Below are positions 54,143 to 64,000 of a stretch of DNA of 64,000 nt, in pieces. This DNA is from an uncultured Modestobacter sp. (GTDB taxonomy: Bacteria; Actinomycetota; Actinomycetes; Mycobacteriales; Geodermatophilaceae): the NCBI RefSeq assembly GCF_947486615.1, contig NZ_CANKUD010000007.1, positions 51,769 to 115,768 on the forward strand, given 5' to 3'. Position 1 is the stretch's first letter. Each line of letters opens with the position of its first letter. The notes beneath the pieces are model-generated. The model searched no databases and was not told the origin of the DNA. It worked only from the letters and a program-made list of their open reading frames with translations. The position numbers and the translations under genes were made by a program.

Positions 54143-55057
54143 GTGGACGAACGTCGGGTCGGGGTGCTCGCCGGCCTCGGCGCCTACTCCCTGTGGGGCG
54201 TGTTCCCCCTCTACTTCCCGCTGCTCGAGCCGGCCGGCGGGCTGGAGATCGTCGCCCACCGGATCGTCTGGTCGCTGCTGTTCGTCGGCCTGCTGCTGAG
54301 CGTGCGTCGCGGCTGGGGCCAGGTGCGCCGGGTCGTGGGGGACCGGCGTGCGCTGCTCGTGCTCGCCGCCGCCGCCGTCCTCATCGCGGCGAACTGGCTG
54401 GTCTACGTCTACGCGGTGAACTCCGGGCACGTGGTCGAGGCGTCGCTGGGCTACTTCATCAACCCGCTGGTCAGCGTGGTGCTCGGGGTGGTGGTCTTCC
54501 GGGAGCGGCTGCGCCGGCTGCAGTGGGTCGCCGTCGGCACCGCCGTGGTGGCGGTGGTCGTGCTGACCGTCGACCACGGCAGCCCGCCGTGGATCGCCCT
54601 CGCGCTGGCGCTGAGCTTCGGCCTGTACGGGCTGATGAAGAAGCTGGTCCGGGTCGAGGCGGCCCCGGGGCTCTTCGTCGAGACCGCGGTGGTGTTCGTC
54701 CCGGCGCTGGTGGTCATCGGCTTCCTGCAGGCCGACGGGCAGGCCGCCTTCGGGCACGACGGGGCCGGCCACGCCCTGCTCCTGGTGAGCTCGGGGCTGG
54801 CCACCGCGGTGCCGCTGCTGCTCTTCGCCGCGGCCACCCGGCGGGTGCCGCTGTCGACGGTGGGCCTGCTGCAGTACGTGACCCCGCTGATGCAGCTGTC
54901 CATCGGCGTCTTCGTCTACGACGAGCCGATGCCCCCGGCGCGGCTCGCCGGTTTCGCCATCGTCTGGCTGGCCCTGGCGGTCTTCACCGTCGACAGCCTG
55001 CGCCAGGCCCGGACGAACCGCCGGGCCGCGGCCGACCCGCTGCCCGCCGGCATCTGA
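54143..55057 (+). CDS. rarD: EamA/RarD family transporter
   Basis: AYSLWGVFPLYF, HRIVWS, EASLGYFINPL, GLLQYVTP. Confidence 0.9.
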   Translation: MDERRVGVLAGLGAYSLWGVFPLYFPLLEPAGGLEIVAHRIVWSLLFVGLLLSVRRGWGQVRRVVGDRRALLVLAAAAVLIAANWLVYVYAVNSGHVVEASLGYFINPLVSVVLGVVVFRERLRRLQWVAVGTAVVAVVVLTVDHGSPPWIALALALSFGLYGLMKKLVRVEAAPGLFVETAVVFVPALVVIGFLQADGQAAFGHDGAGHALLLVSSGLATAVPLLLFAAATRRVPLSTVGLLQYVTPLMQLSIGVFVYDEPMPPARLAGFAIVWLALAVFTVDSLRQARTNRRAAADPLPAGI

Positions 55058-55195
55058 CCTCTCCCGGACGCCGTCGGCCGCCGGGGCGTCGGGTGCTCCG
55101 CGCACTGCCGGACGCGGCTACCGTCGAGGGGGTCCGGACACCACCGGGCCGCGTCCCGCACGCCGCCCGACGCCCATCGACCGGAGGCCCGTCCC

Positions 55196-55600
55196 GTGAG
55201 CAGCGACCCCGTCCCGACCGCCGGCCCGGAGCCGGACGGCGGGGCGCCCACCCCATCGCCGGCCGGTGCGGGGACGGCGACCGAGGCCGCCCCGGGCGGG
55301 GCTGGTGGGGCGGCTGTGACTGGCGGGGACGACACGGCTGTGAACCTGCCCGCACGTGAGCGGGAGATGCTGGCCTTCGAACGGCAGTGGTGGCGGTTCG
55401 CCGGGGCCAGGGAGGCCGCCATCCGGGAGCGTTTCGGGATGACGCCCACCCGGTATTACCAGGTGCTCAACGCCCTGATCGACCGACCGGAGGCGCTCGC
55501 GGCCGACCCGCTGCTGGTGCGGAGGCTGCGCCGGTTGCGCGGTGCGCGGCAGCGGCAGCGCTCCGGTCGGGTCCTGGGCACGGACCCCGCTCGCGACTAG
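55196..55600 (+). CDS. DUF3263 family protein
   Basis: LAFERQWW, AIRERFGMTPTRYYQVLNALID, DPLLVRRLRR. Confidence 0.9.
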   Translation: MSSDPVPTAGPEPDGGAPTPSPAGAGTATEAAPGGAGGAAVTGGDDTAVNLPAREREMLAFERQWWRFAGAREAAIRERFGMTPTRYYQVLNALIDRPEALAADPLLVRRLRRLRGARQRQRSGRVLGTDPARD

Positions 55601-55611
55601 CCTCTCTCACC

Positions 55612-57162
55612 GTGGGGAGGCATGCGGCACCAGGCAGTGACGGAAGCGCGCCCGAGGTGTCCGCACCGACGGGTCGTCGCCGCGCCGACGCCCGCCCGGA
55701 CGCCGTCCCCGGCCGGCCAGCGGTCGAAGCGCCACTGGAGTCCCGGCCCACCGGCGCCCTGCAGCGGACGGCGGACACCGGGCCGGACAGCGATGCCGCG
55801 ATGACGATGCCGCGGCAGAGCCGGGCCGACCGTCGTCGCGAGGGACTGCTCCCGGCCGGCGAGGACCCCATGGTGCGCCGCCCGCCGGCTCGCCCGGACA
55901 CGCCCGCGCCGGCCGCCGGCCGCCGGCGCTCCGACCTGCCCGCCGCCGCACCCGTCCCCGACCGTCGGGCGACCGGGGAGCGGACGCCCGCCCCACGGAC
56001 GGCACCGCCGGTCTCCGGCCCGATGACCTCGGCCGCACCCCGCCCGGGCACGCCTCGTCCGGCCGCCGCCGCGTCGGCGCCGGCGACGACCGCCAGCCCG
56101 CGTCCCACGCCGCCCGCTCCCTCGGCCCCGCCGCCGGCCGGTTCGGCGATGCCCCCCGTGGCACGGGCCGCCGGAGCGCCGGGCCGGACGGCCGAGCCGG
56201 CCCCCCTGCCCCTGGACGTGACCCAGCGGGTCTCCGGGTCCGCCCCGGCCGAGTCGGCGTGGGGCACGGCCGCCACCACGGCCCCGCCGACGAACGCCGC
56301 ACCCGTGAACGCCGCACCCGTGGACGCCCCGTCCACGGCCACCCCGCCTGCCGCACCCGCCCCGCCGGCCGCCGGGCGCAGCGCTCAGCCCGCCGCCGTG
56401 CCGCCGGTCGCGGGCCGGCGTCCGGCGACGCCGTCCCCCGCCGTGCCGGAGCTGCCGGCCGCCGCTCGCGCCGAGGACGACGGGGGCCCGGCGGCCCCGG
56501 CCCGCCGCGCCGTCGACGTCCCCGTGGGCGGTCGCGCCGCCCTCCGGCTGGAGCGGCAGGCGGCCGAGGCGGCCCGCAAGAAGTCCGGCACCCGGCGCCC
56601 CGCCGCCGAGGCGGCTCCCCGGTCCGACCGGGACGACGCCCCCGCCGAGGACGTGCGTCGCGGCCCCCGCCGCCTGGCGCAGGGGCTGGTCGCCGTCGCG
56701 GTGGTCGCGCTCGCGGTGCTGGGCTGGTGGTCCTTCGCCTCGCCGAGCACCACCGAGACCTCGGCGCAGACCCCGGTACCGAGCATCGCCCCCTCGCCCT
56801 CGGTGTCCCCGGTCCAGGAGAGCGTCGCGCCGGCACCGGAGATCACCCCGGCTCCGGTCGGCCCGGTCTTCGCGCCGATCACCGTGCTGAACAGCACCAC
56901 GATCAACGGCCTGGCCGCCGACGTCGGTGACCAGTTCGCCGCCGGCGGCTGGGAGGTGCTCGACACCGCGGCCTCGCCGGTCGACGACGTCGCCACCACC
57001 ACCGTGTACTTCAGCGAGGGCAACACGGTGCAGCAGCAGGCGGCCACCCAGCTGGTCGAGCAGTTCCCCGACGTCTCCGGCCCGGTCGCCCGCTACTTCG
57101 AGGTGCCCGGCGTCGCCGACCCCGGCCTGGTCGTCGTGGCCACCGGGAACTGGCAGCCCTGA
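55612..57162 (+). CDS. LytR_C-domain membrane protein with long Pro/Ala/Arg-rich N-terminus; start provisional
   Basis: TM helix ~56690-56740, ITVLNSTTINGLAA, TTVYF, LVVVATG; paired with DUF3263; TAGCCT 8 nt before GTG. Confidence 0.75.
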   Translation: MGRHAAPGSDGSAPEVSAPTGRRRADARPDAVPGRPAVEAPLESRPTGALQRTADTGPDSDAAMTMPRQSRADRRREGLLPAGEDPMVRRPPARPDTPAPAAGRRRSDLPAAAPVPDRRATGERTPAPRTAPPVSGPMTSAAPRPGTPRPAAAASAPATTASPRPTPPAPSAPPPAGSAMPPVARAAGAPGRTAEPAPLPLDVTQRVSGSAPAESAWGTAATTAPPTNAAPVNAAPVDAPSTATPPAAPAPPAAGRSAQPAAVPPVAGRRPATPSPAVPELPAAARAEDDGGPAAPARRAVDVPVGGRAALRLERQAAEAARKKSGTRRPAAEAAPRSDRDDAPAEDVRRGPRRLAQGLVAVAVVALAVLGWWSFASPSTTETSAQTPVPSIAPSPSVSPVQESVAPAPEITPAPVGPVFAPITVLNSTTINGLAADVGDQFAAGGWEVLDTAASPVDDVATTTVYFSEGNTVQQQAATQLVEQFPDVSGPVARYFEVPGVADPGLVVVATGNWQP

Positions 57163-57215
57163 CCCGGACCGCCCGGGAGCGGAACCACTCCGCCGCGCCG
57201 TCCGTTGCCGCCTCC

Positions 57216-60092
57216 GTGCGCACCGCCTCCGGGCCGGCGCGGAACGGCTCGCGCTCCGGCGCCCGGCTGCTCCCCGCCGCCCTGCTCGCCCTTCTGCTGA
57301 CCCTCCCGCTCCTGGTGGGCACCGCCCTGCCCGCTCGGGCGGCCGAGGAGGTCACCACCACGGAGGCGACCGTCCCCTCCGGCGCGGGCGCGGACGCGGT
57401 CGAACTGGACACCACGCTGTACCTGCCCGCCTCGGCGACGGCCGACGAGCCGGCGCCCGCGGTGCTCCTCGCGCACGGGTTCGGCGGGAGCAAGGAGTCG
57501 GTCGCCACCGACGCGCGGGACCTGGCCGACCGCGGCTACGTGGTGCTCGCCTGGTCGGCCCGCGGGTTCGGGGCGAGCACCGGCCAGATCGGGCTGGACG
57601 ACCCGCGGTACGAGGTCGCCGACGTCAGCACGCTGCTCGACGTCCTGGCCGAGCGGGACGACGTGCTGCTCGACGGCCCCGGTGACCCACGGGCCGGAAT
57701 CGCCGGCGCCTCCTACGGCGGTGCACTGTCGCTGCTGGCCGCCGCCTACGACCAGCGGGTGGACGCGATCGCCCCGCAGATCACCTGGAACTCCCTCACC
57801 ACCGCCTTCTTCCCCGACCAGACCGGCGTCGTCGCCGACGCCGGCACCCCGGCCGCCGTCCCGCGTACCGAGGACGCCGGGGTGTTCAAGCGCACCTGGG
57901 CGGGCCTGTTCTTCGGCACCGGCTCGGTGCCCGGCGACGGCGGGCTGCTCGGTGGCCGGACCGGCAACGGCACCGCGGGCAGCACGGCCCCGGCGGACGG
58001 TGCGGCGCCGGCGGACGGTGCGGCCCCGGCGGACGGCGTCGACCCGGCCGCGGTGCAGGCGCTCACCTGCGGCCGGTTCCGGGCCGACATCTGCGCGGCC
58101 TACGAGTCGGCCGCCTCGACCGGCACGCTCACCCCGGAGGTCGCCGCCGTCCTGGACCGGAGCAGCCCGGCCGGCGTGCTGGACCGGATCACCGCGCCGA
58201 CCCTGCTGGTGCAGGGCACCCAGGACTCGCTGTTCGGGCTGGGCGAGGCCGACGCCAACGCGCGGGGGATCGCCGCCAACGGCACGGACGTCCGCGTGGT
58301 CTGGTACTCCGGCGGTCACGACAGCTCCGCCTCCGACCGGGTCACCACCGAGCTGCGCGACGAGGTCGCCGACTGGTTCGACCGGCACCTGCGCGACGGG
58401 TCCGGTGCCGACGGGGGCTTCCGGTACCCGGCGCCCACCGGGCTGGCCGGGGGGCTGAGCGCGCAGGGCGGCTCGCAGACCGTCTCCGCGGCCGAGTACC
58501 CGGGGCTGGACGGCGCGGCCCCGGTCGAGCGGCGCGAGGTCGAGCTCGGCGGCGACACCCAGCCGGTGGTGACCCCGGCCGGCGGCAGCCCCGCCGCGCT
58601 GTCGACCGTGCCCGGCCTGGGCGCGGTGTCGGCGGCGCTGGGCGGCAGCACGCTGGAGATCCCCGGCCAGTTCGCCGCCTTCGACAGCCCCGAGCTGACC
58701 GAGGCCGTCGACGTGGTCGGCGCGTCCACCGTCACGCTCACCGTCGCCGTCCCGGCCGGGACGGCGACGATGTTCGCCAAGCTCTACGACGTCGCCCCCG
58801 ACGGCACGATGACGCTGCCCAGCGGCCTCGTCGCCCCGCTCGCGCTCACCGGGCTGTCCGCCGAGCCGACCGAGGTGCCGGTGACGCTGCCGGCGATCGT
58901 GCACCGCTTCGAGGTCGGCCACACCATGCGCGTGCTGGTCTCCTCCACCGACCAGGCCTACGCCCTGCCGGCGGACTCCGCGGTGTCGACCGTGGGGCTC
59001 GCGGAGGGGGCCACCCTCGCCGTCCCGCAGGTCGCCGGTGAGGTGCAGGCGACCGCCGGGTCGGGCCGGTGGTGGGTGCTGCTCGGCGTGCTGGCCGGCC
59101 TGGCCCTGCTGGGCTGGCTGGCCACGGTGCTCCTCGGCCGGCGCCGCCGCAGGCGGGTGTCGGAGTCCGCGCCCGACGGCGAGGACGTGCCGCTGCGGTT
59201 CGAGGGCGTCACCAAGGCCTACTCCGACGGCTTCGTCGCCGTCCGGGACCTCTCCTTCGAGGTGCGCCGCGGCCAGGTGCTCGGCCTGCTGGGGCCCAAC
59301 GGCGCGGGCAAGACGACGTCCCTGCGGATGCTGATGGGCCTGATCCGGCCGACCGAGGGGCGGATCGAGGTGTTCGGTCACGCCGCGGGCCCCGGTGCCC
59401 CGGTGCTGTCCCGGCTGGGCTCGTTCGTGGAGGGCACCGGGCTGCAGCCGCACCTGTCCGGCCGGGACAACCTGACCCTCTACTGGGCCGCCACCGGCCG
59501 GCCGCTGGCCGACGCGCACATGGACGAGGCGATCGAGGTCGCCGGCCTGGGTGCGGCGCTGGACAAGCCGGTGCGCAGCTACAGCCAGGGCATGCGGCAG
59601 CGGGTGGCGATCGCCCAGGCGATGCTCGGCCTGCCCGACCTGCTGGTGCTCGACGAACCCACCAACGGGCTGGACCCGCCGCAGATCCACGCCATGCGCG
59701 ACGTGCTGCGCTCCTACGCCGCCACCGGCCGCACGGTGATCGTCTCCAGCCACCTGCTCAGCGAGATCGAGCAGACCTGCAGCCACGTGGTCGTCATGGC
59801 CAAGGGGCAGAAGATCGTGCAGGGCACGGTGGAGGAGATCGTCGGGACCGGGGGAGCGGTGCTCATCGGGCTGGCCGACCCGGCCGACACCGACCGGGCG
59901 GTCGCCGTGCTCGCCGGCCTGCCCGGCGTCGGCGAGGTCGAGCGGACGGCGGAGGGCCTGGTCGTCGACCTCGGTCAGACCGGCCGGGCGGCTGCGCTGG
60001 CCGCCCTGGTCGAGGCCGAGATCGGCGTCGACCAGCTCACCCCGCGCCGCCGGCTGGAGGATGCGTTCCTGTCACTGGTGGGGGAGTCATGA
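57216..60092 (+). CDS. CocE/NonD (peptidase S15-like) alpha/beta hydrolase fused to ABC ATP-binding domain
   Basis: Signal peptide, HGFGG, GASYGG nucleophile elbow, QGTQDSLF, GGHD, TM then RRRRRR, GPNGAGKT, YSQGMRQR, LVLDEPTNGLD. Confidence 0.88.
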   Translation: MRTASGPARNGSRSGARLLPAALLALLLTLPLLVGTALPARAAEEVTTTEATVPSGAGADAVELDTTLYLPASATADEPAPAVLLAHGFGGSKESVATDARDLADRGYVVLAWSARGFGASTGQIGLDDPRYEVADVSTLLDVLAERDDVLLDGPGDPRAGIAGASYGGALSLLAAAYDQRVDAIAPQITWNSLTTAFFPDQTGVVADAGTPAAVPRTEDAGVFKRTWAGLFFGTGSVPGDGGLLGGRTGNGTAGSTAPADGAAPADGAAPADGVDPAAVQALTCGRFRADICAAYESAASTGTLTPEVAAVLDRSSPAGVLDRITAPTLLVQGTQDSLFGLGEADANARGIAANGTDVRVVWYSGGHDSSASDRVTTELRDEVADWFDRHLRDGSGADGGFRYPAPTGLAGGLSAQGGSQTVSAAEYPGLDGAAPVERREVELGGDTQPVVTPAGGSPAALSTVPGLGAVSAALGGSTLEIPGQFAAFDSPELTEAVDVVGASTVTLTVAVPAGTATMFAKLYDVAPDGTMTLPSGLVAPLALTGLSAEPTEVPVTLPAIVHRFEVGHTMRVLVSSTDQAYALPADSAVSTVGLAEGATLAVPQVAGEVQATAGSGRWWVLLGVLAGLALLGWLATVLLGRRRRRRVSESAPDGEDVPLRFEGVTKAYSDGFVAVRDLSFEVRRGQVLGLLGPNGAGKTTSLRMLMGLIRPTEGRIEVFGHAAGPGAPVLSRLGSFVEGTGLQPHLSGRDNLTLYWAATGRPLADAHMDEAIEVAGLGAALDKPVRSYSQGMRQRVAIAQAMLGLPDLLVLDEPTNGLDPPQIHAMRDVLRSYAATGRTVIVSSHLLSEIEQTCSHVVVMAKGQKIVQGTVEEIVGTGGAVLIGLADPADTDRAVAVLAGLPGVGEVERTAEGLVVDLGQTGRAAALAALVEAEIGVDQLTPRRRLEDAFLSLVGES

Positions 60093-60994
60093 GCCACGCG
60101 ACCGACGATCCGGCCATGGTGGCCAACAAGGCCGGAGCCGGAGCCGGGACGGGGGCGGCGGCAGGGTACCGGCCGGAGCGGACGCTGCGGCTGGGGGTCG
60201 AGCTGCGCCGGCAGTTCAAGCGCCGCCGGACCATCGGCGTGCTGGTGCTGATGGCGGCGCTGCCGCTGCTGCTGATCGGCGCGCTGCAGCTGGGCGGCAC
60301 CGAGGAGGCGTCGGAGAACACCCGGGTCAACCTGGTCGACGTCGCCTCGTCGAGCGGGCTGAACCTCACCCTGTTCACCCTGTTCGCCACCACCGGCTTC
60401 TTCCTCGTGGTCGTCTTCGCGCTGTTCTTCGGCGACACCGTGGCCAGCGAGGCGTCCTGGGGGTCGCTGCGCTACGCGCTGGCCACCCCGGTGCCACGCG
60501 CCCGGCTGCTCAGGCAGAAGTGGCTGGCCGCGCTGATCCTGTCGGTCGGGTCGATGGTGCTGCTGGTCGTCGTCTCGGTGGTCGCCGGTGGGATCGCCTT
60601 CGGCTTCGGGGACGTGCAGACCCCGGTCGGCCTGGCGCTGGACCAGGGGACGGCGCTGGTGCGGCTGGCCGGGATGGTCGGCTACCTCGCCGTCCACCTG
60701 CTGGTGGTGGGCACGCTGGCGTTCTGGCTGTCCACCGTCACCGACGCGCCGCTGGCCGCGGTCGGCGGCGCGGTGTTCACCACCGTGGTGTTCGCGGTGC
60801 TGGAGCAGGTCGAGCAGCTGGACGGCATCCGCGACTGGTTCCCCACGGCGTTCAACTACGCCTGGACCGACCTGCTGCAGACCCCGGTCGACTCCGGTGA
60901 CCTGTTCCGCGGCGTCGTCCAGGGGCTGGTCTACTCCGCCGTCTTCACCGCCCTCGCCGTCCGGCACTTCGCCCGCAAGGACGTCACGAGCTAG
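60089..60994 (+). CDS. ABC-2 type permease
   Basis: Six hydrophobic segments, GDTVASEASWGSLRY, coupled to the preceding gene. Confidence 0.88.
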   Translation: MSHATDDPAMVANKAGAGAGTGAAAGYRPERTLRLGVELRRQFKRRRTIGVLVLMAALPLLLIGALQLGGTEEASENTRVNLVDVASSSGLNLTLFTLFATTGFFLVVVFALFFGDTVASEASWGSLRYALATPVPRARLLRQKWLAALILSVGSMVLLVVVSVVAGGIAFGFGDVQTPVGLALDQGTALVRLAGMVGYLAVHLLVVGTLAFWLSTVTDAPLAAVGGAVFTTVVFAVLEQVEQLDGIRDWFPTAFNYAWTDLLQTPVDSGDLFRGVVQGLVYSAVFTALAVRHFARKDVTS

Positions 60995-61007
60995 CGGTCG
61001 GAGCGGA

Positions 61008-61832
61008 TCAGCCGAGGCTGGTCAGCACCGCCTGGGCCCAGCCCTCGCCCATCGGCGCGTCGGTGACGGTGGCGTTCGGGACGGCGGCGATCCGGTCGGC
61101 CATCCCGGTCACCGCCGCGCCGTTGGCGGTGACCCACAGCCGGCCGACCGCCGGTGCCATCTCCAGGTCGCTGACGCTGTCGCCGACCGCCACCGCGTCC
61201 GCAGCGTCCAGCCCTCGGCGGGCGAGGTCCCAGCGGATCGCCTCGCCCTTGGAGATCCCGCGCGGCATCAGGTGGTAGACGTGCGGCGGCAGCGCGTCGG
61301 CGTCCAGCGTCATCCGCGGGGTGGCCGGCACCGCGCCGTTGTCGTTCATCGTCAGCCAGCCCCAGCCGCGCTCGGCCAGCCAGTCGTCGACCGCGGCGGC
61401 ATCGACCCGGCCGCGCAGCAGCGCGTCGGCGGAGTGGGTGGCGTGCCAGGGCTCGTGCCACTCGATCCGCCCCGGGTGCGCGGCGATCAGCTGCTCCACC
61501 ACGCCGAGCTCGGCCAGCACGTCCATCGGCGTCCGGCCGGCGTACTGCTCGGGCAGGTCGCCGGTGAGCAGATGGGTCTCCCGGCCGCCGGCCCAGCTGA
61601 CCAGCGAGCCGAGCTCGGCGATCGCGCCGTCGGCGGCGAAGATGCGGCCGGCCTCCAGCAGCTGGGCGTGGGTGCGGCCGCTGACCAGCACCAACGGGAC
61701 GCCGGCCCGGTGCAGCTCCAGGAGCGCGGCGGCGGGAGAGGCGGTCGGCACGCGGTCGGCGGTGTGCCAGAACGAGCCCCGCGGGCCCACCATCGTGCCG
61801 TCGAGGTCGGTGTAGACGATGCGGGTGGCCAC
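61008..61832 (-). CDS. HAD superfamily (Cof/MPGP-like, IIB) phosphatase
   Basis: YTDLDGT, VSGR, SKGEA, AVGDSVSDLEM; start refined to GTG 61832. Confidence 0.85.
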   Translation of the reverse strand: MATRIVYTDLDGTMVGPRGSFWHTADRVPTASPAAALLELHRAGVPLVLVSGRTHAQLLEAGRIFAADGAIAELGSLVSWAGGRETHLLTGDLPEQYAGRTPMDVLAELGVVEQLIAAHPGRIEWHEPWHATHSADALLRGRVDAAAVDDWLAERGWGWLTMNDNGAVPATPRMTLDADALPPHVYHLMPRGISKGEAIRWDLARRGLDAADAVAVGDSVSDLEMAPAVGRLWVTANGAAVTGMADRIAAVPNATVTDAPMGEGWAQAVLTSLG

Positions 61833-61893
61833 GGGCCCATCCTGTCGGTGCCGGGCGGGCAGGGCGGCTCCGGGTAGAGTCGGTGACGTTCCA

Positions 61894-62015
61894 CTCATCC
61901 AGAGGGGCAGAGGGACACGGCCCGATGAAGCCCCGGCAACCGCCGTCGCACTCCCGCGACGGAAGGTGCCAATTCCGTCTCGCGCGGCTCGACGGCCCGG
62001 CGCGGGGAAGATGAG
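61894..62015 (+). ncRNA. SAM-I (S-box) riboswitch
   Basis: CTCATCCAGAG..GAGGGA..GGCCCGATGAAGCCCCGGCAACC..GGTGCCAATTCC..GAAGATGAG; P1 3' strand overlaps the GAGGAGG RBS. Confidence 0.92.
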
Positions 62016-62029
62016 GAGGTAGTCGTCGC

Positions 62030-63331
62030 ATGACCATGACCGCTCCCGGCTCCGCCCAGGCAGACGTCACCGAGGGTGGGCCGGTCCCGCCGAACCCCGC
62101 CCGCGGGCTGGTCTGTCGCAACTGCGGCGCCACCTTCGCACTGATCGCCGAGCACGCCTGCGCCGAGTGCTTCGGCCCGCTGGAGGTCGACTACGACCCC
62201 GAGCTGATGCGCGCGGTGACCCGCCAGCAGATCGAGGCCGGCCCGCAGAACATCTGGCGCTACGCCGCCCTCCTGCCGGTCGGGCAGGACCCGGCCGACC
62301 GGGTCACCCTCGACCCGGGCATGACCCCGCTGGTCCGCGCCGACCGGCTGGCCGCCGAGCTCGGCCTCACCGGTGGGCTGTGGGTCAAGGACGACTCGGC
62401 CAACCCCACGCACTCCTTCAAGGACCGGGTGGTGAGCCTGGCCGCGACCGCGGCGAAGAGCTTCGGCTACGCCAAGATCGCCTGCGCCTCCACCGGCAAC
62501 CTGGCCAACTCCGTCGCCGCGCACGCCGCGCGGATGGGGCTGCCCTCCTTCGTGTTCGTGCCCAGCGACCTGGAGCCGGGCAAGATCACCCAGTCCGCGG
62601 TCTACGGGCAGGCGCTGGTCGCCGTCGACGGCAACTACGACGACGTCAACCGGCTGACCAGCGAGCTCGCCGAGACCGACGAGTTCGAGGACACCGCCTT
62701 CGTCAACCAGAACGTCCGGCCGTACTACGCCGAGGGCTCCAAGACGATGGGCTACGAGATCGCCGAGCAGCTGGGCTGGCGGATCCCGGCCCAGGTGGTC
62801 ATCCCGATGGCGTCCGGCTCGCTGCTCACCAAGGTGGACAAGGCCTGGCGCGAGCTGGTCGCCGCCGGCATCGTCGAGGACACCGGCTGGAAGGTCTTCG
62901 GCGCCCAGTCCGCCGGCTGCGACCCGATCGCGACCGCCTTCGACAACGGCTGGGACGTCGTCAAGCCGGTCAAGCCCACCGGGATCGCGAAGTCGCTGAA
63001 CATCGGCAACCCCGCCGACGGGCCCTACGCCCTGGACGCCATCCGGCGCACCGGCGGCTCGGTCGGCCGGGTCGGGGACGACGAGATCGTCGCCGGCATC
63101 CGCGACCTGGCCCGCACCACCGGCGTCTTCGCCGAGACGGCCGGTGGCGTGACCACCGCGGTGCTGCGGCAGCTGGTGGAGAAGGGGCTGATCGACCCCA
63201 CGCAGGAGGTCGTCGTGCTGAACACCGGCGAGGGTCTGAAGACCCTGGACCCGCTGCTGCCGGTGGTCGGGCCCTCGCACCACGTGCAGCCGTCGCTGAG
63301 GTCGCTCCGCGAGGCCGGCCTCATCGCTTAG
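62030..63331 (+). CDS. thrC: PLP-dependent threonine synthase-like enzyme (fold type II)
   Basis: N-terminal CxxC..CxxC, NPTHSFKDR PLP lysine, ASTGN, EGSKTM, PMASGSL, NTGEGLK. Confidence 0.88.
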   Translation: MTMTAPGSAQADVTEGGPVPPNPARGLVCRNCGATFALIAEHACAECFGPLEVDYDPELMRAVTRQQIEAGPQNIWRYAALLPVGQDPADRVTLDPGMTPLVRADRLAAELGLTGGLWVKDDSANPTHSFKDRVVSLAATAAKSFGYAKIACASTGNLANSVAAHAARMGLPSFVFVPSDLEPGKITQSAVYGQALVAVDGNYDDVNRLTSELAETDEFEDTAFVNQNVRPYYAEGSKTMGYEIAEQLGWRIPAQVVIPMASGSLLTKVDKAWRELVAAGIVEDTGWKVFGAQSAGCDPIATAFDNGWDVVKPVKPTGIAKSLNIGNPADGPYALDAIRRTGGSVGRVGDDEIVAGIRDLARTTGVFAETAGGVTTAVLRQLVEKGLIDPTQEVVVLNTGEGLKTLDPLLPVVGPSHHVQPSLRSLREAGLIA

Positions 63332-63387
63332 GCCCCGTCCGGAGGCTCGCCCCGAGCTTGCGAGGGGTGAGGGGGACGGGGTCCTTT
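63331..63387 (-). repeat. Dispersed palindromic element, copy D
   Basis: ggccccgtcc/ggacggggtcc stem, inner cgagcttgcg, gtcctt end; starts at the thrC stop. Confidence 0.8.
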
Positions 63388-63552
63388 AACACACGGGAGG
63401 GTGATCCGCGTGCGGGTCAGTGACCAAGAACACCCCGCTCCTGTACCGTTCCGCGCGGTTTCAGTTCCACGTTCGTGTTCGGCGGGCGGAAGGGCGAGAC
63501 CCGGCTCCCGGATGCCGGGGGTCGTCCGCACGCACTGAACGTGGGAGCACAC

Positions 63553-63753
63553 GTGGCACAGGGCACCGTGAAGTGGTTCAACGCCGAGAAGGGCTTCGGC
63601 TTCATCGCCGTGGACGGCGGCCAGGACGTCTTCGTCCACTACTCGGCCATCCAGATGGACGGGTACAAGAGCCTCGAGGAGGGCCAGCGGGTCAGCTTCG
63701 AGGTCGTCCAGGGCGAGAAGGGGCCGCAGGCCGACGCCGTCCAGAGCGCCTGA
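63553..63753 (+). CDS. cspA: Cold-shock protein (CspA family)
   Basis: [15 protein letters not shown] (RNP1), VFVHYSAI (RNP2), GEKGPQA. Confidence 0.97.
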
Positions 63754-63793
63754 TCTGAGGCAGCGCCGCCGTCCGCACGGCGACCACGGACCG

Positions 63794-63830
63794 AGCGAGG
63801 CCCGGTCCCCACGGGGGGCCGGGCCTCGCT
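63794..63830 (+). terminator. csp terminator
   Basis: agcgaggcccggtccc / ggggccgggcctcgct inverted repeat. Confidence 0.8.
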
Positions 63831-63864
63831 GCGTCTACCGACGGGATCGCGGCCCCTGCCTGCG

Positions 63865-63890
63865 GGAACAGTCCCGGGCCACCCCCCGTT
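63865..63890 (+). promoter_or_regulatory. Putative SigH/SigR promoter upstream of the CIRCE pair
   Basis: GGAAC-N18-GTT (CGTT). Confidence 0.55.
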
Positions 63891-63917
63891 CTTGCACTCG
63901 CACAGGCCGAGTGCCAG
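63891..63917. promoter_or_regulatory. CIRCE element 1 (HrcA operator) overlapping a TTGCAC-N17-CAGACT promoter
   Basis: CTTGCACTC-N9-GAGTGCCAG versus consensus TTAGCACTC-N9-GAGTGCTAA. Confidence 0.88.
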
Positions 63918-63925
63918 ACTCCTTC

Positions 63926-63952
63926 TTGGCACTCACGCCTGTCGAGTGCCAA
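63926..63952. promoter_or_regulatory. CIRCE element 2 (HrcA operator)
   Basis: TTGGCACTC-N9-GAGTGCCAA perfect palindrome; implies a groEL/groES gene just beyond the window. Confidence 0.92.
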
Positions 63953-64000
63953 CCAGGTCGGAACGGTGAGGTACCGGGACGTGGGCCGCAGGAGCGTCCA

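What the first reader, a model, noticed from the sequence alone, without database searches (positions are those of the whole stretch)
61894..63387. SAM-I riboswitch on a threonine-synthase-like gene with no adjacent sulfur-carrier gene
Seen: canonical SAM-I whose P1 overlaps the RBS (translational control) drives a ThrC-fold enzyme with an N-terminal Zn-ribbon; only 221 bp, holding repeat copy D and the csp leader, separate it from csp. Knowledge: SAM control points to methionine/sulfur metabolism rather than threonine, and from memory related actinomycete loci place a MoaD/ThiS-like sulfur carrier directly after this gene for homocysteine synthesis from O-phosphohomoserine. Inference: a mis-annotated sulfhydrylase that either uses a carrier encoded elsewhere or free sulfide; the repeat may mark the deletion point.
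Basis: partly seen in the sequence, partly recalled or inferred. Interest (0 to 1): 0.55.

Follow-up and report, generated by a model that had tools for sequence, protein, structure and literature searches.

The report
SAM-controlled MetM homocysteine synthase without MetO
A gene labelled "threonine synthase" behind a SAM-sensing RNA switch in a Modestobacter genome is most likely a MetM-type enzyme that makes the methionine precursor homocysteine; its dedicated sulfur-carrier gene metO was not found anywhere in the genome, as in about a third of related actinomycetes, so it probably borrows the cysteine-pathway carrier CysO.

Summary
A SAM-I riboswitch (Rfam 75.7 bits, window 61892-62017) ends 12 nt before a 433-aa ThrC-fold PLP enzyme with an N-terminal four-Cys ribbon. 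Helix P1 pairs with the Shine-Dalgarno sequence, and 221 bp separate the gene from csp.

The gene is an orthologue (60% identity) of the Streptomyces metM genes that lie in SAM-I/metM/metO operons. This is the O-phosphohomoserine plus protein-thiocarboxylate route of Hasebe et al. 2024. A canonical hom-thrC-thrB operon and a SAM-IV-controlled metY-metX pair lie elsewhere.

The missing carrier is a lineage-wide state, not a local deletion:
- None of the 80 closest loci has metO.
- MetM occurs in 226 of 301 sampled Actinomycetes, but a MetO-type tail in only 140.
- Whole families have MetM and no MetO.

In 13 of 13 such genomes examined, metO was not found anywhere. A mec-cysO-cysM cluster is always present, here together with a MoeZ-type activator. 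CysO, whose PAVAGG tail matches MetO's, is therefore the most likely donor; this is an inference.

The 55-nt repeat is a dispersed REP-like hairpin (65 copies) that relatives lack at this site. It is not a deletion scar.

This scan has reported SAM/MetM/MetO operons many times before. Only the MetO-less state is new here.

The parts
61892..62017 (+). SAM-I (S-box) riboswitch aptamer, four-way junction. It is the only SAM-I in the genome.
   Evidence: Rfam RF00162, 75.7 bits, E 8e-17, model 1-108. Genome-wide scan. The minimum-free-energy fold reproduces P1-P4.
62013..62019 (+). Shine-Dalgarno GAGGAGG. It overlaps the 3' strand of P1 (62010-62015) and its 2-bp extension (62018-62019), giving a translational OFF switch.
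   Evidence: Sequence, cmscan alignment, fold. No terminator-like site.
62030..63331 (+). metM-type gene (annotated 'threonine synthase' in relatives), 433 aa. Inferred function: homocysteine synthase that uses O-phosphohomoserine.
   Evidence: PALP and TIGR00260 matches. 60% identity to Streptomyces metM-operon proteins. Keeps 152 of 159 columns that are >=95% conserved in MetO-coupled MetM, and 75 of 80 MetM-specific ones. Tree placement.
62114..62170 (+). N-terminal four-cysteine (CxxC-x11-CxxC) Zn-ribbon motif, residues 29-47.
   Evidence: Translation. The four Cys are invariant in 85 of 85 homologues and gapped in canonical ThrC.
62420..62422 (+). Codon of the PLP-binding lysine (K131, in the SFKDR motif).
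   Evidence: Invariant in all homologues and in canonical ThrC. Aligns to the ThrC structures 2zsj and 1uim.
63332..63386 (.). Copy of a dispersed 55-nt palindromic REP-like repeat (hairpin, -34.9 kcal/mol). A recent insertion that probably also acts as a transcript-end hairpin.
   Evidence: 65 copies of >=45 nt in the genome, on both strands. Absent from this site in L010-L025.
63387..63552 (+). Conserved 5' leader of csp.
   Evidence: 80-88% identical over 104-170 nt in 16 Geodermatophilaceae loci. No Rfam family match.
63553..63753 (+). Cold-shock protein gene (csp). Not part of the metM unit.
   Evidence: PF00313 CSD, E 7e-31. Follows metM in the Geodermatophilaceae loci.

Best explanation
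The unit is a SAM-repressed metM gene.

Regulation. When SAM is abundant, the SAM-I aptamer closes helix P1. P1 pairs with the Shine-Dalgarno sequence and blocks translation. The structure is shown; the regulation is inferred.

Enzyme. The product is a MetM-type, ThrC-fold PLP enzyme with a Zn ribbon. It replaces the phosphate of O-phosphohomoserine, supplied by the hom-thrC-thrB operon, with sulfur to give homocysteine. This route runs in parallel to the SAM-IV-controlled MetX/MetY route. The activity is inferred from orthology to the Streptomyces system.

Sulfur donor. Neither this genome nor its whole clade shows a metO gene. The donor is therefore most likely the thiocarboxylate of CysO, the single CysO/MetO-type carrier left. 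CysO is encoded in mec-cysO-cysM at G000:C4:465714-467625. It would be activated by the MoeZ-type ThiF-rhodanese protein (C2:164034-165275) and released or trimmed by the JAMM peptidase Mec. On this reading one carrier serves both cysteine and homocysteine synthesis. This last step is inference.
For: Riboswitch and RBS overlap.

Not the housekeeping ThrC:
- A second thrC scores 314 bits and lies beside thrB and hom.
- The tree branch to it is 6.2 substitutions per site.

MetM orthology:
- 60% identity over 422 aa to a Streptomyces protein whose gene is followed by a 91-aa carrier ending IPAVAGG and preceded by SAM-I.
- 152 of 159 conserved columns are kept.
- SAM-I lies upstream in 20 of 20 MetO-less and 20 of 20 MetO-coupled loci.
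- GapMind 2026 (PMC13759103) lists MetM, MetO, Mec and MoeZ as the experimentally supported Streptomyces pathway.

metO not found rather than relocated:
- 0 of 80 closest loci have it.
- 13 of 13 MetO-less genomes hold only the CysO of mec-cysO-cysM, while 13 of 13 MetO-coupled genomes hold both carriers.
- The MetO-tail pattern gives 0 hits in G000 and in families f16 (MetM 20/20), f26, f3 and f7. The CysO-tail pattern is present in all of these.

CysO as a plausible substitute:
- Own CysO is 47-58% identical to MetO proteins and has the same PAVAGG C-terminus.
- Mec and a ThiF+rhodanese MoeZ-type protein are present.

No sign of functional drift:
- No convergent substitutions in independent MetO-less clades.
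Against: - No biochemical data exist for any MetO-less MetM.
- I could not read the primary paper (PMC11497804 is not held). I therefore do not know whether MetM accepts free sulfide or CysO in vitro, or whether MetO-less genomes were already discussed.
- I did not have the characterised S. albulus protein itself. Orthology is to other Streptomyces species.
- This genome also holds a second, MetO-like carrier (40-54% identical to MetO proteins) beside a propeller protein.
- A complete MetX/MetY route exists, so the gene is not needed to explain prototrophy.
- The rooting of the MetM tree on a very long branch is unreliable. Whether the clade lost metO or never had it is therefore not settled.
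Confidence: 0.68

Rival explanations
1. It is a MetM-type homocysteine synthase, but in MetO-less lineages it takes free sulfide (or another small sulfur donor) directly, without any carrier protein.
For: metO was not found in the genome. No carrier gene is co-regulated: this is the only SAM-I in the genome, and the only SAM-IV drives metY-metX. The related enzyme CysM of M. tuberculosis is known, from general knowledge, to accept sulfide less efficiently.
Against: Positions conserved in MetO-coupled MetM are kept, and no convergent change is seen in independent MetO-less clades. Every wholly MetO-less family examined keeps CysO, Mec and CysM.
Confidence: 0.17
2. The donor is the other CysO/MetO-like carrier of this genome (94 aa, G000:C7:31187-31468). 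On this reading it is a diverged MetO that moved next to a propeller gene.
For: It is closer to MetO proteins (40-54%, best 54%) than to CysO proteins (33-47%) and falls near MetO in the carrier tree.
Against: It is always paired with the same BNR/Asp-box-like propeller protein, in 5 of 5 genomes. Two of these also have metM-metO. Only 3 of 13 MetO-less genomes have it. Its tail (QSVAGG) differs from the PAVAGG shared by MetO and CysO. Its tree branch is long (1.28).
Confidence: 0.08
3. It is a genuine second threonine synthase, or a ThrC-like enzyme with another gamma-replacement chemistry, placed under SAM control for a reason unrelated to homocysteine synthesis.
For: It passes the TIGR00260 thrC cut-off. 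Its best solved relatives are all threonine synthases. A cyanobacterial homologue was reported to show threonine synthase and deaminase activities (PMC12172450).
Against: A canonical thrC sits in hom-thrC-thrB. SAM-I control is universal for this family in 40 of 40 loci. The protein belongs to one tight family with the metO-coupled Streptomyces genes.
Confidence: 0.05
4. metO was deleted recently at this locus, and the 55-nt repeat is the scar.
For: The repeat lies exactly where metO begins in other families, directly after the stop codon.
Against: The repeat has about 65 dispersed copies. It is absent from the same site in 16 related Geodermatophilaceae loci, which also lack metO and share the csp leader. 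The whole 20-member clade in the tree is MetO-less.
Confidence: 0.02

Closest known systems
MetM/MetO (with Mec and MoeZ) O-phospho-L-homoserine route to homocysteine, Streptomyces albulus (Hasebe et al. 2024, Appl Environ Microbiol 90:e01247-24; as listed in GapMind 2026, PMC13759103)
   Same: ThrC-like PLP enzyme with an N-terminal Cys4 ribbon. 60% identity to Streptomyces orthologues. SAM-I riboswitch directly upstream. Mec, a MoeZ-type protein and homoserine kinase are present in the genome.
   Different: metO was not found, adjacent or elsewhere. The only close relative of MetO is the CysO of the mec-cysO-cysM cluster. The gene is monocistronic and is followed by a REP-like hairpin and csp.
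CysO-CysM-Mec+ / MoeZ protein-thiocarboxylate cysteine pathway of Mycobacterium tuberculosis
   Same: The same kind of chemistry: a PLP enzyme, a phosphorylated hydroxy-amino acid and a carrier thiocarboxylate. The genome has a complete mec-cysO-cysM cluster and a ThiF-rhodanese activator.
   Different: That pathway makes cysteine from O-phosphoserine with a CysM-fold enzyme. Here a ThrC-fold enzyme would act on O-phosphohomoserine. Use of CysO by MetM is a proposal, not a known fact.
Canonical threonine synthase ThrC (TIGR00260; structures 2zsj, 1uim, 2d1f)
   Same: Fold, PLP lysine motif SFKDR, and substrate O-phosphohomoserine. 32-34% identity.
   Different: It has the extra Zn ribbon and SAM control, and it lies outside the thr operon. 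The genome has a separate true thrC. It shares only 79 of 159 positions conserved in MetM.
HcyS/HcyD/HcyF/MetY thiocarboxylate-dependent homocysteine synthesis of Wolinella succinogenes (from general knowledge)
   Same: A ubiquitin-like carrier thiocarboxylate donates the sulfur of homocysteine.
   Different: That system uses a MetY-fold enzyme and O-acetylhomoserine, not a ThrC-fold enzyme and O-phosphohomoserine.

Membership tests
SAM-I riboswitch (RF00162) | Score above the Rfam gathering threshold, with the full four-helix aptamer. | tested here: met
   75.7 bits against 44.4, model positions 1-108. P1-P4 recovered by the minimum-free-energy fold.
SAM-I riboswitch (RF00162) | An expression platform that couples ligand binding to gene expression. 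| tested here: met
   The P1 3' strand and its extension pair with the SD GAGGAGG. There is no terminator. Ligand response itself was not tested.
MetM homocysteine synthase | ThrC-fold PLP enzyme with the catalytic Lys. | tested here: met
   PALP E 3e-68. K131 in SFKDR is invariant. ThrC structures are the best fold matches (the model is only pLDDT 65).
MetM homocysteine synthase | N-terminal four-Cys ribbon that canonical actinobacterial ThrC lacks. | tested here: met
   C29, C32, C44 and C47 are invariant in 85 of 85 homologues and gapped in the genome's own canonical ThrC.
MetM homocysteine synthase | Orthology to the characterised Streptomyces enzyme. | tested here: met
   60% identity over 422 aa to Streptomyces proteins encoded in SAM-I/metM/metO operons. 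One tight clade in the tree. The S. albulus sequence itself was not available, so this is orthology at genus level.
MetM homocysteine synthase | A dedicated carrier gene metO adjacent and co-transcribed. | tested here: not met
   No ThiS/MoaD-like ORF lies in the 221-bp spacer. The MetO-type tail pattern gives 0 hits in G000. The only CysO-type gene lies in mec-cysO-cysM.
MetM homocysteine synthase | Accessory enzymes Mec (JAMM) and MoeZ (E1-rhodanese) present in the genome. | tested here: met
   Mec-like JAMM protein upstream of cysO. A 413-aa ThiF+Rhodanese protein.
MetM homocysteine synthase | Forms homocysteine from O-phosphohomoserine and a carrier thiocarboxylate. | not testable with these tools
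   Needs an enzyme assay.
Threonine synthase ThrC (TIGR00260 / NF006050) | Scores above the curated equivalog cut-off and is the thr-operon gene. | tested here: inconclusive
   Above the TIGR00260 cut-off (240.9 against 167.1) but below NF006050 (282.8 against 303). The thr operon holds another gene that scores 314 bits.

The most novel reading that the evidence does not exclude
In roughly a third of MetM-bearing Actinomycetes, one ubiquitin-like carrier, CysO, feeds sulfur to two different PLP enzymes: CysM for cysteine and MetM for homocysteine. This includes whole families such as Geodermatophilaceae and Micromonosporaceae. The dedicated MetO of Streptomyces would then be a dispensable paralogue, lost or gained several times. 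The reverse single-carrier state also seems to exist: family f42 has MetM and a MetO-type tail but no CysO-type tail.
Probability: 0.5. Interest if true: 0.45.

Novelty: new variant of a known kind. Interest (0 to 1): 0.36.

Why it matters
- Annotation. This family is named 'threonine synthase' in every database record I saw. Pathway tools that require MetO would call the MetM route incomplete in about a third of the actinomycetes that carry it.
- Biology. If CysO really serves both CysM and MetM, the two protein-thiocarboxylate pathways form one sulfur relay with a single carrier pool. That bears on how sulfur is partitioned between cysteine and methionine, and on how specific carrier-enzyme recognition is.
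- Limits. The enzyme and the riboswitch are otherwise ordinary. This scan has met SAM/MetM/MetO operons in more than 200 genomes.

Tried and rejected
- The primary paper (PMC11497804) is not held, and the GapMind supplements are not held. What Hasebe et al. say about sulfide, CysO or MetO-less genomes could not be checked.
- A literature search for CysO/MetM cross-use found nothing relevant.
- I looked for a relocated metO. Four PF02597 genes exist: ThiS in thiO-thiS-thiG, MoaD after moaA, CysO, and a propeller-linked carrier. None is SAM-controlled.
- I tested whether the propeller-linked carrier is a moved MetO. I rejected this as the main reading because the propeller-carrier pair is a conserved module also present in MetO-coupled genomes.
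- I looked for convergent substitutions in independent MetO-less MetM clades that might show adaptation to another donor. None was found.
- I asked whether CysO proteins of MetO-less genomes are more MetO-like than those of MetO-coupled genomes. They are not (54.0% against 55.3% mean identity).
- No MetM structure is in the PDB by sequence.
- The AlphaFold model from a 24-sequence alignment was mediocre (pLDDT 65, Zn-ribbon region 37-64). It was used only to confirm the ThrC fold.
- Two first-pass carrier translations were in the wrong frame. They were corrected.

Full report
**Source and locus.** The window is G000:C7:51769-115768 of a 4.7-Mb, 99.98%-complete genome. The closest public loci are Modestobacter (96% protein identity), then Blastococcus and Geodermatophilus, so the organism belongs to the Geodermatophilaceae.

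**The observation.**
- cmscan finds one family in 55000-64000: SAM-I (RF00162) at 61892-62017 on the + strand, 75.7 bits against a gathering score of 44.4, full length. It is the only SAM-I in the genome.
- Helix P1 is C61894-C61899 paired with G62010-G62015. After two mismatches it continues with U61890/C61891 paired with G62018/G62019. The purine tract GAGGAGG (62013-62019), 11 nt before ATG 62030, is therefore inside P1 when the aptamer is closed. No terminator-like site was found.
- The ORF 62030-63331 encodes 433 aa with a PALP domain (E 3e-68). It passes TIGR00260 thrC (240.9 against 167.1 bits) but not the more specific NF006050 (282.8 against 303).
- Residues 29-47 carry CxxC-x11-CxxC. 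The four Cys are invariant in 85 of 85 homologues and missing from the genome's canonical ThrC.
- The stop at 63331 and the csp start at 63553 leave exactly 221 bp.

**It is not the housekeeping threonine synthase.**
- The genome has a better thrC (314 bits) at C2:77650-78603, flanked by thrB (C2:76763-77542) and a homoserine dehydrogenase ORF.
- In a tree, that protein joins the window's family by a branch of 6.2 substitutions per site.
- The best solved relatives, by sequence and by fold, are canonical threonine synthases at 32-34% identity. No closer structure exists (the model has pLDDT 65 only).

**What is known.**
- GapMind 2026 (PMC13759103) lists four proteins as an experimentally supported Streptomyces pathway, citing Hasebe et al. 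[quoted passage not shown]
- PMC12172450 adds that metM of S. albulus has an upstream SAM riboswitch and that metO lies next to it.
- The primary paper is not held.

**Orthology to MetM.**
- In a sample of 301 Actinomycetes genomes, a homologue with about 60% identity or more is present in 226.
- In genus g28 the gene is followed, at -3 to +107 nt, by a 91-92-aa ORF ending IPAVAGG, and it is preceded by SAM-I. Exact look-up identifies these proteins as Streptomyces 'threonine synthase' and 'MoaD/ThiS family protein'.
- The window protein is 60% identical to one of them over 422 aa.
- It keeps 152 of the 159 columns that are >=95% conserved among 38 carrier-coupled homologues, and 75 of the 80 that differ from the canonical ThrC.
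- SAM-I lies directly upstream in 20 of 20 carrier-less and 20 of 20 carrier-coupled loci tested.

I therefore file the gene as a MetM orthologue. The one caveat is that the S. albulus sequence itself was not in hand.

**The missing carrier is a lineage state.**
- None of the 80 closest loci has a CysO-like ORF after the gene. These are Geodermatophilaceae, Micromonosporaceae, Glycomyces, Jatrophihabitans and related MAGs.
- Of 70 loci from the class sample, 38 have the adjacent carrier and 32 do not.
- In the tree, the window sits in an all-carrier-less group of 20. Other carrier-less clades (f39, f16, f38, f7, f26 and others) lie among coupled ones. At least 7-8 changes of state are needed, and 3-4 are forced by well-supported branches. 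The root lies on a very long branch, so the direction (loss or gain) is not settled for the window's clade.
- A pattern for the MetO-type tail (S-[VI]-I-P-A-V-A-G-G) hits 140 of 301 genomes, once each, with 0 control hits. It misses a few variant tails, so this is a lower bound.
- Whole families have MetM but no such tail: f16 (MetM 20/20, tail 0/20), f26 (7/7, 0/7), f3 (3/3, 0/3) and f7 (3/4, 0/4).

**Absent, not moved.** I searched 26 genomes with the window genome's CysO.
- The 13 with metM-metO each have two close carriers. One is next to metM (47-58% identical to the query). The other is in a mec-cysO-cysM cluster (61-74%).
- The 13 without an adjacent metO, including G000, each have only the mec-cysO-cysM copy.
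- The CysO-type tail (T-[VI]-L-P-A-V-A-G-G) is present in 241 of 301 genomes and in every genome of the wholly carrier-less families f16, f26, f3 and f7.

**The likely donor in this genome.** Four PF02597 genes exist:
- ThiS, in thiO-thiS-thiG.
- MoaD, after moaA.
- CysO, 92 aa ending VTILPAVAGG-C, in mec-cysO-cysM at C4:465714-467625.
- A 94-aa carrier at C7:31187-31468, behind a 359-aa propeller protein.

CysO shares the PAVAGG tail with MetO. A MoeZ-type ThiF+rhodanese protein is present.

The propeller-linked carrier is closer to MetO proteins (40-54%) than to CysO proteins (33-47%). However, it is paired with the same propeller in 5 of 5 genomes, two of which also have metM-metO. Only 3 of 13 carrier-less genomes have it, and its tail is QSVAGG.

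CysO is therefore the best candidate, and free sulfide the main rival. No convergent substitutions mark the carrier-less MetM clades. CysO proteins of carrier-less genomes are not more MetO-like than the others. The sequences therefore neither show nor exclude a change of partner.

**Metabolic context.**
- The genome's single SAM-IV riboswitch (C3:267524-267640) precedes metY (NF005872, 825 bits) and metX.
- A cystathionine beta-synthase/gamma-synthase-type pair and a gamma-lyase-type gene are also present.

MetM is thus a second, separately SAM-controlled entry to homocysteine, not the only one.

**The repeat.**
- Bases 63332-63386 are one copy of a 55-nt palindromic element (-34.9 kcal/mol) with 65 copies of >=45 nt spread over the contigs on both strands.
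- It is absent from the same spacer in 16 related loci. There the conserved csp leader (80-88% identity over 104-170 nt) starts 17-139 nt after the metM stop.
- It is a recent REP-like insertion, not a deletion scar.

**Verdict.** The reading 'mis-annotated sulfhydrylase whose carrier is elsewhere or absent' is supported, and the deletion-scar idea is not. The system is the known MetM route under a known riboswitch, which this scan has reported in more than 200 genomes. The new element is that it runs without MetO in whole actinomycete families where CysO is the only carrier of that type.

**Unpublished genomes.** G024 (locus L109) is one of the 38 carrier-coupled loci and one tree row. G019, G031 and G244 enter only the tallies. 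No conclusion depends on them.

Noticed in passing
G000:C7:30111-31468 (locus L008:410-1767), about 20 kb before the window start: A two-gene module: a 359-aa BNR/Asp-box-like propeller protein followed by a 94-aa GG-ended carrier that is closer to MetO than to CysO. The pair recurs in 5 of 26 genomes regardless of metO state. Function unknown.
   Followed up: partly
L179 (G206:C1:8127885-8128222); also G063, G240, G251 and G272: In five genomes of family f39, CysO carries a tandem duplicate of its tail, 20 aa apart (...VTILPAVAGG-SAMMPATLGK-VTILPAVAGG). Other CysO proteins have 1-23-residue extensions after GG. This implies obligatory trimming, presumably by Mec.
   Followed up: no
window 63332-63386 and about 65 further sites in G000: A 55-nt GC-rich palindromic REP-like element, on both orientations and often directly after stop codons. 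It is strain- or species-specific at this site.
   Followed up: partly
family f42 (genera g55 and g68): The opposite single-carrier state. MetM and a MetO-type tail are present in nearly all genomes, but no CysO-type tail was found in any of them.
   Followed up: no
window 63387-63552: A long csp 5' leader conserved across Geodermatophilaceae (80-88% over 104-170 nt) with no Rfam match. Possibly a cold-shock mRNA thermosensor.
   Followed up: no
family f2 (16 genomes, same order; Mycobacterium-like sizes): No MetM homologue was found in 0 of 16 genomes of the sister family, although 9 of 16 have a CysO-type tail. The MetM route is missing from that family in the sample.
   Followed up: no
L152:1361-1510 and L153:1-151: A c-di-AMP riboswitch lies about 1 kb upstream of the SAM-I/metM/metO operon in two genomes of family f28.
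   Followed up: no
L027-L070 (Micromonosporaceae loci), downstream of metM: A conserved 340-410-aa ORF ending W-x-N/D-W-Q-L-T follows metM, in place of csp or metO. It was not identified.
   Followed up: no
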